Source: Escherichia coli (GTDB lineage Bacteria; Pseudomonadota; Gammaproteobacteria; Enterobacterales; Enterobacteriaceae). From it: a stretch of DNA of 16,778 nucleotides. Of the stretch, positions 10,309-11,582 are shown one piece after another. The stretch lies in the NCBI RefSeq assembly GCF_003334255.1, contig NZ_QOWU01000076.1; one strand, written 5' to 3'. The number at the start of each line of letters is the position of its first letter. Position 1 is the stretch's first letter. The position numbers were made by a program, and so were the translations under genes. The notes below the pieces were generated by a model. That model had not been told where the DNA came from. It ran no database searches and saw only the letters and a program-made list of their open reading frames with translations.

Positions 10309-11019
10309 GTGAAATACAAATTACTACCATGCTTACTCGCGATATTCCTCACAGGATGTGACCGCACAGAGGTAACACTTTCATTTACCCCTGAGATGGC
10401 CAGTTTCTCTAATGAATTCGATTTTGATCCGCTGCGTGGTCCGGTAAAAGATTTCACTCAGACATTAATGGATGAGCAAGGTGAAGTGACGAAACGTGTT
10501 TCTGGGACTTTGTCGGAAGAAGGCTGTTTTGATTCACTCGAATTACTGGATCTGGAAAATAATACCGTGGTCGCTCTGGTACTGGACGCCAATTATTACC
10601 GTGATGCCGAGACGCTGGAGAAGAGAGTACGTTTACAGGGAAAATGCCAGCTAGCAGAATTACCTTCTGCCGGGGTGAGTTGGGAAACCGATGATAATGG
10701 CTTCGTGATTAAAGCCAGCAGCAAACAAATGCAGATGGAATATCGCTATGATGATCAGGGTTATCCGCTGGGTAAAACCACGAAAAGTAACGACAAAACA
10801 TTATCTGTCAGCGCCACGCCATCAACGGATCCGATCAAAAAATTAGATTACACAGCGGTTACTTTACTGAATAATCAACGGGTTGGTAATGTAAAACAGA
10901 GCTGTGAATATGACAGTCACGCTAATCCGGTGGACTGTCAGCTAATCATTGTTGATGAAGGAGTAAAACCCGCCGTCGAACGGGTTTACACCATCAAAAA
11001 TACGATCGATTATTATTAA
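10309..11019 (+). CDS. ynfC: Lipoprotein YnfC (UPF0257 family), 236 aa from a GTG start
   Basis: Lipobox LTGC after a hydrophobic leader (KYKLLPCLLAIFLTGC); GTG at 10309 gives the expected length; an in-frame ATG at 10273 is an alternative start. Confidence 0.8.
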   Translation: MKYKLLPCLLAIFLTGCDRTEVTLSFTPEMASFSNEFDFDPLRGPVKDFTQTLMDEQGEVTKRVSGTLSEEGCFDSLELLDLENNTVVALVLDANYYRDAETLEKRVRLQGKCQLAELPSAGVSWETDDNGFVIKASSKQMQMEYRYDDQGYPLGKTTKSNDKTLSVSATPSTDPIKKLDYTAVTLLNNQRVGNVKQSCEYDSHANPVDCQLIIVDEGVKPAVERVYTIKNTIDYY

Positions 11020-11021
11020 TG

Positions 11022-11582
11022 CTATTGTGCGGTCGGCTTCAGGAGAGTCTGACCCGGTGTTTTGTGCTCTGCCAGATACTGATGCTGGAATATACACATG
11101 CGAATGGCATTACGATATTGACCATTAATAAAGAACTCGTGCATCAATTCACCTTCAACCGAAAAGCCAAGCTTGCGGTAAATGTGAATCGCTTTTTCAT
11201 TCTCTTTATCAACGATCAGATACAGCTTATAGAGATTGAGAACGGTAAAGCCATAGTCCATTGCTAATTTGGCGGCACGGGTTGCCAGACCTTTCCCCTG
11301 ATACTCCGGGGAGATAATTATCTGAAATTCTGCGCGGCGATGAACATGGTTAATTTCCACCAGCTCCACCAGACCGGCTTTTTCGCCGTCACATTCCACC
11401 ACAAAGCGCCGTTCGCTCTGATCGTGAATATGCTTATCATACAGATCAGAGAGTTCAACAAAGGCTTCGTAGGGTTCCTCAAACCAGTAACGCATCACAC
11501 TGGCGTTATTGTCGAGTTGATGTACATAGCGTAAATCTTCACGCTCCAGCGGGCGTAGCTTAACACTGTGGGCGCTTGGCAT
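11022..11582 (-). CDS. speG: Spermidine N1-acetyltransferase (GNAT family)
   Basis: 186-aa product beginning [41 protein letters not shown], recognised as SpeG. Confidence 0.9.

What the first reader, a model, noticed from the sequence alone, without database searches (positions are those of the whole stretch)
11017..11024. Convergent ynfC and speG stop codons only 2 bp apart
The ynfC stop (11017-11019) and the speG stop (11022-11024, minus strand) are separated by 2 bp, leaving no room for terminators, so transcripts of the two genes must overlap at their 3' ends. This is a possible source of transcriptional interference or antisense effects.
Basis: seen in the sequence. Interest (0 to 1): 0.15.

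Follow-up and report, generated by a model that had tools for sequence, protein, structure and literature searches.

The report
Tightly packed convergent ynfC–speG gene ends
Two E. coli genes that face each other end only 2 bases apart, so their messenger RNAs must overlap, but this is a common, already catalogued arrangement whose stop signals simply sit inside the neighbouring gene.

Summary
ynfC (+) ends with TAA at 11017-11019, speG (-) ends with TAG (CTA) at 11022-11024, and 2 nt lie between them. RefSeq annotation agrees. The junction is present without indels in the Escherichia sequences examined, and in about 5,380 of 5,426 complete E. coli genomes.

The convergent pairing is conserved in Citrobacter (6-16 nt) and Salmonella arizonae (40 nt). 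Both protein ends are fixed, so only the spacer shrank.

Transcript overlap is already published. speG-ynfC is one of 165 convergent "excludons" of MG1655. A bicyclomycin experiment places a Rho-dependent termination region on the speG strand about 200 nt inside ynfC.

So there is "no room for terminators" only in the spacer; the signals lie inside the partner gene. A weak Escherichia-specific hairpin with a U-run sits 35-56 nt past the speG stop, but no mapped 3' end supports it.

Tight spacing is not rare. In my sample, 4 of 40 other convergent pairs were 5 nt apart or less, or overlapping. Published work reports that 75% of convergent operons overlap.

No evidence shows any regulatory effect. 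The finding is ordinary and already known.

The parts
10309..11019 (+). ynfC coding sequence (YnfC family lipoprotein, 236 aa, GTG start, TAA stop at 11017-11019)
   Evidence: ORF list; RefSeq annotation of the identical locus L001; end of protein conserved in 16 loci
11020..11021 (.). 2-nt spacer (TG) between the two stop codons; the bases vary (TG/TA/CG) within Escherichia but the length does not
11022..11582 (-). speG coding sequence (spermidine N1-acetyltransferase, 186 aa; TAG stop = CTA at 11022-11024)
   Evidence: identical to PDB 6CY6/4R9M chains
11617..11958 (-). ynfB, the promoter-proximal gene of the ynfB-speG operon that supplies the speG transcript
   Evidence: annotation; operon described in PMC3213128
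11025..11069 (-). Codons for SpeG residues 172-186. This is an enteric-specific C-terminal extension beyond the conserved acetyltransferase fold, and it occupies what would otherwise be ynfC 3'-UTR space.
   Evidence: Non-enteric SpeG structures (168-176 aa) align only to about residue 171, and the E. coli crystal construct 3WR7 stops at residue 174
10966..10987 (-). Hairpin AAACCCGUU-CGAC-GGCGGGUUU on the speG strand, 35-56 nt past the speG stop, inside ynfC codons K220-Y227. It is a candidate weak intrinsic terminator or 3' stabiliser of speG mRNA (inferred, not shown).
   Evidence: fold; ranks 9th of 232 hairpin+U sites in the window; invariant in E. coli and cryptic clades, absent in Citrobacter and Salmonella
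10954..10965 (-). U-rich tail UACUCCUUCAUC after the hairpin (UUUU counting the last stem bases); short for a canonical U-tract
10842..10961 (-). C-rich, G-poor stretch of the speG 3' untranslated RNA (C/G 1.4-1.8), a plausible Rho loading (rut) region
   Evidence: composition windows
10822..10822 (-). Published Rho termination region (MG1655 U00096.3 position 1656955, + strand, classed as antisense to ynfC), 200 nt past the speG stop. Its resolution is coarse: it is the best position within 800-nt windows.
   Evidence: PMC7815308 Supp. file 2: reads upstream/downstream 163/39 untreated and 170/256 with bicyclomycin; Rho score 6.29, p=1.3e-22. The coordinate mapping is my own arithmetic from the speG stop, taken as MG1655 U00096.3 1656755. 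I derived that anchor from the U00096.2 distances in PMC3465305 plus a recalled shift of about 1,980 nt between genome versions; it was not checked against a U00096.3 annotation.
11031..11066 (+). Weak hairpin GGUCGG...CUGACC (11031-11054) followed by CGGUGUUUUGUG on the ynfC strand, inside the SpeG tail codons. It is a possible weak ynfC terminator and is not statistically distinguishable from shuffled sequence.
   Evidence: fold z-score +0.35; not among the listed (top 45) sites of my scan
11175..11200 (+). Weak hairpin GCGGUAAAUGUGAAUCGC + UUUUUCAUUC, 156-173 nt past the ynfC stop, antisense to speG. It is the only terminator-like site the consensus scan reported near the junction.
   Evidence: dG only -3.7 kcal/mol, rank 15 of 232

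Best explanation
This is an ordinary, tightly packed convergent gene pair of the Escherichia chromosome. The stop codons are 2 nt apart, so any complete ynfC mRNA and any complete ynfB-speG mRNA must each run into the other gene's last codons. The overlap is therefore obligatory. Termination does not need the spacer, because the signals lie inside the partner's coding sequence. Once the ribosome leaves at the speG stop, the RNA is untranslated and antisense to ynfC. A weak Escherichia-specific hairpin with a short U-run lies 35-56 nt downstream and may stop or stabilise some transcripts (inferred). A C-rich stretch follows, and Rho ends the rest about 200 nt inside ynfC (shown by published bicyclomycin data). 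Where ynfC transcripts end inside speG is unknown. Only weak hairpin+U sites and C-rich stretches exist there, so Rho-dependent or diffuse termination is most likely (inferred). The spacer shrank by loss of intergenic bases. Some relatives with 15-40 nt spacers still carry a strong GC hairpin spanning the speG stop codon, and Escherichia lost its left arm. There is no evidence that the overlap regulates either gene. It is most simply a tolerated by-product of compaction.
For: Sequence and annotation agree on the 2-nt gap. The junction is fixed in length in all Escherichia sequences examined and present in about 5,380 E. coli genomes, while the spacer bases vary freely. The convergent pairing is conserved with spacers of 2, 6, 7, 15, 16 and 40 nt, while YnfC (236 aa) and SpeG (186 aa) ends stay fixed. 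A perfect 7-10 bp hairpin spans the speG stop in C. amalonaticus, C. sedlakii, a Citrobacter MAG and S. arizonae, and is absent in Escherichia. speG-ynfC is in the published MG1655 excludome. A Rho termination region lies at 1656955 (+), antisense to ynfC, with Rho score 6.29 and p=1.3e-22. The C/G ratio is 1.4-1.8 just upstream of it. The hairpin+U site ranks 9th of 232 in the window. Background: 4 of 40 sampled convergent pairs are 5 nt apart or less, or overlap; 75% of convergent operons overlap; 146 of 165 convergent excludons have predicted terminators embedded in the neighbour's transcription unit. Synonymous divergence shows no dip at either 3' end across 16 loci, so there is no conserved embedded element.
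Against: No single-nucleotide 3' end for speG or ynfC appears in the curated Term-seq lists of PMC7815308, so the exact ends are not known and the hairpin is unsupported as a terminator. The Rho region is located only to within hundreds of nucleotides. It could in principle also reflect an antisense transcript that starts inside the region rather than speG read-through. With a 2-nt gap, the ExcludonFinder criterion (coverage at or above 50% beyond the stop on both strands) is met almost automatically, so the listing shows co-expression more than it shows a regulatory unit. Absence of regulation is an argument from lack of evidence; nobody appears to have tested it.
Confidence: 0.8

Rival explanations
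1. Functional convergent excludon. The obligatory 3' overlap makes speG and ynfC antagonise each other through head-on RNA polymerase collisions or RNase III cleavage of the duplex. High expression of one would then lower the other, linking polyamine acetylation to the YnfC lipoprotein.
For: The pair is listed in the MG1655 excludome. The convergent arrangement with a very short spacer is conserved across Escherichia, Citrobacter and Salmonella arizonae. Collision-driven termination between convergent E. coli genes has been demonstrated in vitro (bioRxiv 10.1101/2022.10.23.513370).
Against: No reciprocal expression data exist for this pair in anything I could read. Expression appears modest (163 DirectRNA-seq reads per 800 nt on the speG strand), which makes simultaneous convergent transcription in one cell infrequent. 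There is no synonymous-site constraint on the overlap region. Spacer length and hairpin positions differ between genera, as expected for neutral drift. Overlap is the rule for convergent operons (75%), so it does not by itself indicate function.
Confidence: 0.1
2. speG is ended mainly by an intrinsic terminator embedded in ynfC codons 220-227 (window 10966-10987 plus the U-run). Under this reading the element evolved in Escherichia to replace the lost stop-spanning hairpin, and Rho acts only as a back-up.
For: The hairpin has a GC-rich core followed by UUUU, on the correct strand, 35 nt past the stop. It ranks 9th of 232 in 33.5 kb; about 1 such site per 3.7 kb gives roughly a 3% chance of one falling in a given 100-nt window, though this is a post hoc estimate. 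It is invariant in E. coli and cryptic clades. The substitutions in E. albertii and in L019 keep G-U pairing on the speG strand only. It is present exactly in the lineage that lacks the ancestral hairpin.
Against: The score is below the classical terminator threshold (d = -14.8, against +25.7 and +7.1 for the best sites in the window). The U-tract has only 4 U. The consensus scan did not report it. No Term-seq 3' end is listed there in three growth conditions. The 163/39 read drop is bicyclomycin-sensitive, which points to Rho as the main stop. The two wobble-preserving substitutions carry little weight (about 1 in 4 by chance).
Confidence: 0.25
3. Annotation artefact: one of the two reading frames really ends earlier, so the true gap is larger.
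For: The last 12-15 residues of SpeG lie beyond the conserved fold, and one crystal construct omits them.
Against: Full-length 186-aa SpeG is the deposited E. coli protein (6CY6, 4R9M). Both stop positions are conserved relative to the protein alignments in 16 loci from three genera, with synonymous changes in the tail codons (K-P-T-A-Q kept). The YnfC C-terminus I-D-Y-Y is also conserved.
Confidence: 0.02

Closest known systems
Convergent excludons / overlapping 3' ends of convergent operons in E. coli (Conway et al. 2014, PMC4161252; ExcludonFinder 2025, PMC12288877)
   Same: Adjacent convergent genes whose transcripts overlap at their 3' ends, with termination signals lying inside the neighbour's transcription unit. 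speG-ynfC is itself in the published list.
   Different: The spacer (2 nt) is at the short end of the range; the mean intergenic distance of E. coli excludons is 95 nt. Mutually exclusive expression, the functional hallmark of an excludon, has not been shown for this pair.
Rho-dependent termination in 3' UTRs and of antisense RNA (Adams et al. 2021, PMC7815308)
   Same: Untranslated RNA downstream of a stop codon, C-rich and G-poor, with bicyclomycin-sensitive read-through. This very site is in their table.
   Different: The '3' UTR' here is entirely the antisense of another gene's coding sequence. The exact termination points are unmapped.
Bidirectional terminators between convergent gene pairs, and collision-assisted termination (Ju et al. 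2019 as cited in bioRxiv 10.1101/2022.10.23.513370)
   Same: A convergent pair without strong canonical terminators, where head-on polymerase encounters are possible. Citrobacter and Salmonella relatives have a single GC hairpin at the junction that could act in both directions.
   Different: In E. coli there is no shared hairpin at the junction, because the 2-nt spacer lost the left arm. The speG-strand stop is Rho-dependent, whereas that class was described as Rho-independent.
Other near-abutting or overlapping convergent pairs in E. coli (yadE-panD 3 nt, yliI-gstB 4-nt overlap, clcB-bioD/bidA 48-nt overlap)
   Same: The same geometry. All three are also in the published excludome.
   Different: None of note. 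This shows the finding belongs to a populated class.

Membership tests
Convergent excludon (operational definition of ExcludonFinder) | Adjacent genes on opposite strands with facing 3' ends | tested here: met
Convergent excludon (operational definition of ExcludonFinder) | RNA-seq-defined transcript boundaries of the two genes overlap | tested here: met
   Not computed by me. The pair is listed in Table 1 of PMC12288877 (at least 50% of 58 MG1655 samples). Caveat: with a 2-nt gap the criterion is almost automatically satisfied.
Convergent excludon (functional definition) | Reciprocal or mutually exclusive expression of the two genes caused by the overlap | not testable with these tools
   No expression data for this pair in the papers read. 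Needs promoter-deletion or terminator-insertion experiments.
Rho-dependent terminator | Read-through increases when Rho is inhibited (bicyclomycin) | tested here: met
   Published table: 163/39 reads untreated versus 170/256 with BCM, Rho score 6.29, p=1.3e-22 at 1656955 (+)
Rho-dependent terminator | C-rich, G-poor untranslated RNA of at least 60-80 nt upstream of the stop region | tested here: met
   Minus-strand windows 10961-10842 have C/G 1.4-1.8, and the region lies after the speG stop codon
Intrinsic (Rho-independent) terminator (hairpin 10966-10987, minus strand) | GC-rich stem-loop immediately followed by a U-tract | tested here: inconclusive
   6-bp GC/GU core extendable to 9 bp, dG -6.5 kcal/mol, tail UUUUACUCC with only 4 U. 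d-score -14.8, below threshold, rank 9 of 232. Missed by the consensus scan.
Intrinsic (Rho-independent) terminator (hairpin 10966-10987, minus strand) | A mapped RNA 3' end in the U-tract | tested here: not met
   No curated Term-seq 3' end between MG1655 1656500 and 1657099 in PMC7815308 Supp. files 1 and 3. Low expression could hide one.
Bidirectional terminator between convergent genes | One hairpin-forming palindrome located between, or spanning, the two gene ends | tested here: not met
   No hairpin spans the E. coli junction. The feature is met in relatives L006, L007, L008 and L015 (ACCGCGCAG..CTGCGCGGT around the speG stop).

The most novel reading that the evidence does not exclude
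In the Escherichia lineage, deletion of the spacer destroyed an ancestral hairpin that spanned the speG stop codon. A replacement speG terminator or stabiliser hairpin then evolved inside the last codons of ynfC. Under this reading the overlap now acts as a genuine excludon, in which speG (polyamine detoxification) and the YnfC lipoprotein repress each other.
Probability: 0.07. Interest if true: 0.35.

Novelty: already known. Interest (0 to 1): 0.08.

Why it matters
It matters little by itself. It is a clean textbook-style example of two points. Bacterial genes can abut so closely that their mRNAs must overlap. Termination signals, here Rho-dependent, can be housed inside a neighbour's coding sequence. 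If the overlap were shown to couple speG and ynfC expression, it would add one more validated excludon and hint at a function for the uncharacterised YnfC lipoprotein, but nothing currently points that way. The small evolutionary series is a mildly instructive case of intergenic compaction: a 40-nt spacer, then 16, 7 and 2 nt, with loss of a junction hairpin.

Tried and rejected
- Rfam scan of the whole window found nothing at the junction.
- The consensus promoter/terminator scan found site counts equal to the shuffle expectation. It found no terminator within 150 nt of either stop.
- Folding of both strands around the junction gave z-scores from +0.35 to -2.26. Only the minus-strand segment containing the ynfC-internal hairpin stood out modestly.
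- The synonymous-divergence profile across 16 loci, run to look for selection on embedded RNA signals, showed no dip at either 3' end.
- I searched for single-nucleotide 3' ends. The curated Term-seq tables of PMC7815308 have none for speG, ynfC or ynfB.
- No supplementary tables are held for PMC12288877, PMC9023263, PMC4161252, PMC6061677, PMC8848933 or PMC12259150.
- Ju et al. 2019, tried under a PMC id I recalled from memory, and Peters et al. 2012 could not be retrieved.
- I considered and rejected misannotation of either stop.
- I considered a 'non-contiguous operon', with ynfC reading through antisense speG-ynfB into the co-oriented ynfA. There is no supporting evidence, and it is not among the three listed for E. 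coli.

Full report
**1. The observation**

The window is E. coli chromosome. It runs prophage insert - ynfF - ynfE - ynfD - ynfC - speG - ynfB - ynfA - rspAB, in the reverse of MG1655 orientation.

The sequence at the site reads ...GAT TAT TAT TAA tg CTA TTG TGC....
- ynfC (+) ends with TAA at 11017-11019.
- speG (-) ends with TAG (CTA on the plus strand) at 11022-11024.
- Two bases, TG, lie between the stops.

The ORF list and RefSeq annotation of an identical stretch (ynfC 3110-3820 +, speG 3823-4383 -) agree. The annotated ynfC start is the GTG at 10309 (236 aa, signal peptide MKYKLLPCLLAIFLTGC), not the ATG at 10273 that the mechanical ORF list reports.

**2. How fixed and how unusual it is**

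A 121-nt stretch across the junction is present in 5,381 of 5,426 complete E. coli genomes. It is at least 99% identical in 4,173 of them, and all listed rows span 121 nt.

Nine Escherichia sequences align without a single indel: five E. coli lineages, a divergent 'E. coli' (L002), E. whittamii, Escherichia sp. E1V33 and E. albertii. The two spacer bases vary (TG, TA, CG). The length is fixed and the bases are free.

A genome-wide scan with YnfC recovered 18 loci. The ynfC and speG genes are convergent neighbours in:
- all Escherichia (gap 2 nt);
- ten Citrobacter-type loci (gaps 6, 6, 6, 6, 7, 7, 7, 15, 16 and 16 nt);
- Salmonella enterica subsp. arizonae (gap 40 nt).

In Pseudenterobacter and Cedecea, ynfC has no adjacent speG. 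In every case YnfC ends at residue 236 and SpeG at residue 186. The spacer therefore changed by gain or loss of intergenic bases, not by stop-codon shifts.

For background I read the annotation of four 50-kb samples of one E. coli genome and found 41 convergent pairs. The 40 other than the target have a median gap of about 45 nt. Four (10%) are 5 nt apart or less, or overlap:
- yadE-panD, 3 nt;
- yliI-gstB, 4-nt overlap;
- clcB-bioD/bidA, 48-nt overlap;
- one prophage pair, 32-nt overlap.

The 2-nt gap is in the short tail of the distribution but belongs to a populated class.

**3. What is already published about the transcripts**

ExcludonFinder (PMC12288877) lists speG-ynfC among the 165 convergent 'excludons' found in at least 50% of 58 MG1655 RNA-seq samples. 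The same paper reports that 146 of 165 such pairs have predicted terminators embedded in the neighbour's transcription unit.

Conway et al. (PMC4161252) found that 276 of 370 convergent operons overlap, by 286 nt on average.

Adams et al. (PMC7815308) compared DirectRNA-seq with and without the Rho inhibitor bicyclomycin. Their Supplementary file 2 has an entry at 1656955 (+), classed as antisense to ynfC:
- untreated reads, 163 upstream and 39 downstream;
- treated reads, 170 upstream and 256 downstream;
- Rho score 6.29, p = 1.3e-22.

I place the speG stop at 1656755 in U00096.3. I derived that coordinate from the U00096.2 distances in the PhoB table plus a shift of about 1,980 nt between genome versions that I recalled from memory; it was not checked against a U00096.3 annotation. 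By my arithmetic the Rho region then lies 200 nt past the stop, at window position about 10822 on the minus strand. The method reports the best position within 800-nt windows, so the location is approximate.

Their curated Term-seq lists contain no 3' end for speG, ynfC or ynfB.

**4. Anatomy of the two 3' regions**

*Minus strand, speG mRNA.* Starting 35 nt past the stop, the RNA can form AAACCCGUU-CGAC-GGCGGGUUU (window 10987-10966), followed by U ACUCCUUCAUC. This lies in ynfC codons K220-Y227.

I ran a scan of my own over both strands of the window, combining hairpin energy per length with a d'Aubenton-Carafa-type U-tail score. This site ranks 9th of 232 (d = -14.8). The two clear terminators in the window score +25.7 and +7.1. 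The tool's consensus scan missed it.

Downstream of the hairpin, windows 10961-10842 are C-rich (C/G 1.4-1.8). This fits a Rho loading region just upstream of the published Rho region.

*Plus strand, ynfC mRNA.* A 6-bp hairpin (11031-11054) followed by CGGUGUUUUGUG is no better than shuffled sequence (z = +0.35). A second weak hairpin plus UUUUUC lies at 11175-11200. C-rich stretches occur at 11080-11219 and 11320-11440. Where ynfC transcripts end is therefore unknown.

**5. Evolution of the junction**

Relatives with 15-40 nt spacers carry a perfect 7-10 bp GC hairpin (ACCGCGCAG - cgaTTA - CTGCGCGGT). These are C. amalonaticus, a Citrobacter MAG, C. sedlakii and S. arizonae.
- The loop of the hairpin contains the speG stop codon.
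- Its right arm encodes the last SpeG residues P-T-A-Q.
- On the ynfC strand it is followed by (A/C/G)GGUUU(U/C)A.

Escherichia keeps the right arm, which is coding, but has lost the left arm. The ynfC-internal hairpin exists only in Escherichia.

The last 12-15 SpeG residues lie beyond the conserved acetyltransferase fold. Non-enteric homologues of 168-176 aa align only to about residue 171, and one E. coli crystal construct ends at residue 174. Part of what is 3'-UTR space in other bacteria is therefore coding here.

A synonymous-divergence profile over 16 loci shows no dip at the 3' end of speG (0.28-0.48 against a mean of 0.40) or of ynfC (0.39 against 0.45). No embedded RNA element is conserved across genera. 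Each lineage appears to make do with whatever signals are present.

**6. Interpretation**

A complete mRNA must extend past its stop codon, so with a 2-nt spacer each transcript necessarily covers the other gene's last codons.

The phrase 'no room for terminators' applies only to the spacer. Termination happens inside the partner gene, at least for the speG strand, by Rho (shown in published data). It may be preceded by a weak intrinsic hairpin (inferred, about 25% confidence).

Whether the overlap has any regulatory consequence is untested. Several things favour a passive, tolerated overlap (about 80%) over a functional excludon (about 10%):
- overlap is the norm for convergent operons;
- expression looks modest;
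- synonymous sites are unconstrained;
- the geometry drifts between genera.

Collision-assisted termination, as proposed for convergent E. coli pairs (bioRxiv 10.1101/2022.10.23.513370), remains possible. However, the class described there is Rho-independent and centred on a shared hairpin, which E. coli lacks here.

**7. Novelty and score**

The arrangement is annotated in every E. coli genome. The overlap is in a published catalogue, and the Rho region is in a published table. The only small additions from this work are:
- the spacer series of 40, 16, 7 and 2 nt, with loss of a junction hairpin;
- the Escherichia-specific hairpin inside ynfC.

The finding is already known, and its interest is about 0.08.

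Noticed in passing
window 3754-3839 (-) and 4288-4376 (-); context window 1-4780: There are two Rfam sRNA-Xcc1 (RF02221) matches of 73 and 69 bits. They lie in a prophage-like insert (antA/antB antirepressor genes, PAPS reductase) that abuts ynfF and leaves only a truncated '4Fe-4S binding protein' where ynfG should be. Only 54 of 5,426 E. coli genomes share this stretch.
   Followed up: partly
L006 3185-3215, L007 3173-3203, L008 3212-3241, L015 3237-3266: A perfect 7-10 bp GC hairpin (ACCGCGCAG..TTA..CTGCGCGGT) has the speG stop codon in its loop and SpeG codons P-T-A-Q as its right arm. It is present in Citrobacter and Salmonella relatives with 15-40 nt spacers and lost in Escherichia.
   Followed up: yes
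window 10891-10908: GTAAAACAGAGCTGTGAA inside ynfC is listed as a PhoB ChIP-chip site with a PhoB-box-like motif. No expression change was reported for speG or ynfC (PMC3465305).
   Followed up: no
L019 2501-2870 (Escherichia sp. MOD1-EC7003); H1 NZ_CP085060.1; H20 NZ_CM172488.1: ynfC is sometimes lost or broken while speG stays. L019 has a premature stop, which leaves 147 nt between the stops. One E. coli strain has an IS1A insertion in the ynfC-speG stretch. Another has a deletion joining ynfC to ydfJ.
   Followed up: partly
window 3050-3076, both strands: This is the best terminator-like element in the window. GGAGCTTCGGCTCC is followed by TTTTTTT on the minus strand (d = +25.7), and its complement is followed by TTTGGT on the plus strand. 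It looks like a bidirectional terminator inside the prophage-like region.
   Followed up: no
window 10985-11013 (+): A sigma-70-like match (TTTACA, 17 nt, GATTAT; 9 of 12) lies in the last codons of ynfC. It would start a plus-strand RNA antisense to speG. The number of such matches in the region equals the shuffle expectation, so it is probably chance.
   Followed up: no
window 10273 vs 10309: The mechanical ORF for ynfC starts at ATG 10273 (248 aa). The annotation and the lipoprotein signal peptide (MKYKLLPCLLAIFLTGC) fit the GTG at 10309 (236 aa).
   Followed up: partly
L020 49114-49118; L023 32939-32942; L021 40887-40934: Other near-abutting or overlapping convergent pairs occur in the same genome: yadE-panD (3-nt gap), yliI-gstB (4-nt overlap) and clcB-bioD/bidA (48-nt overlap). 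All are also in the published excludome list.
   Followed up: yes
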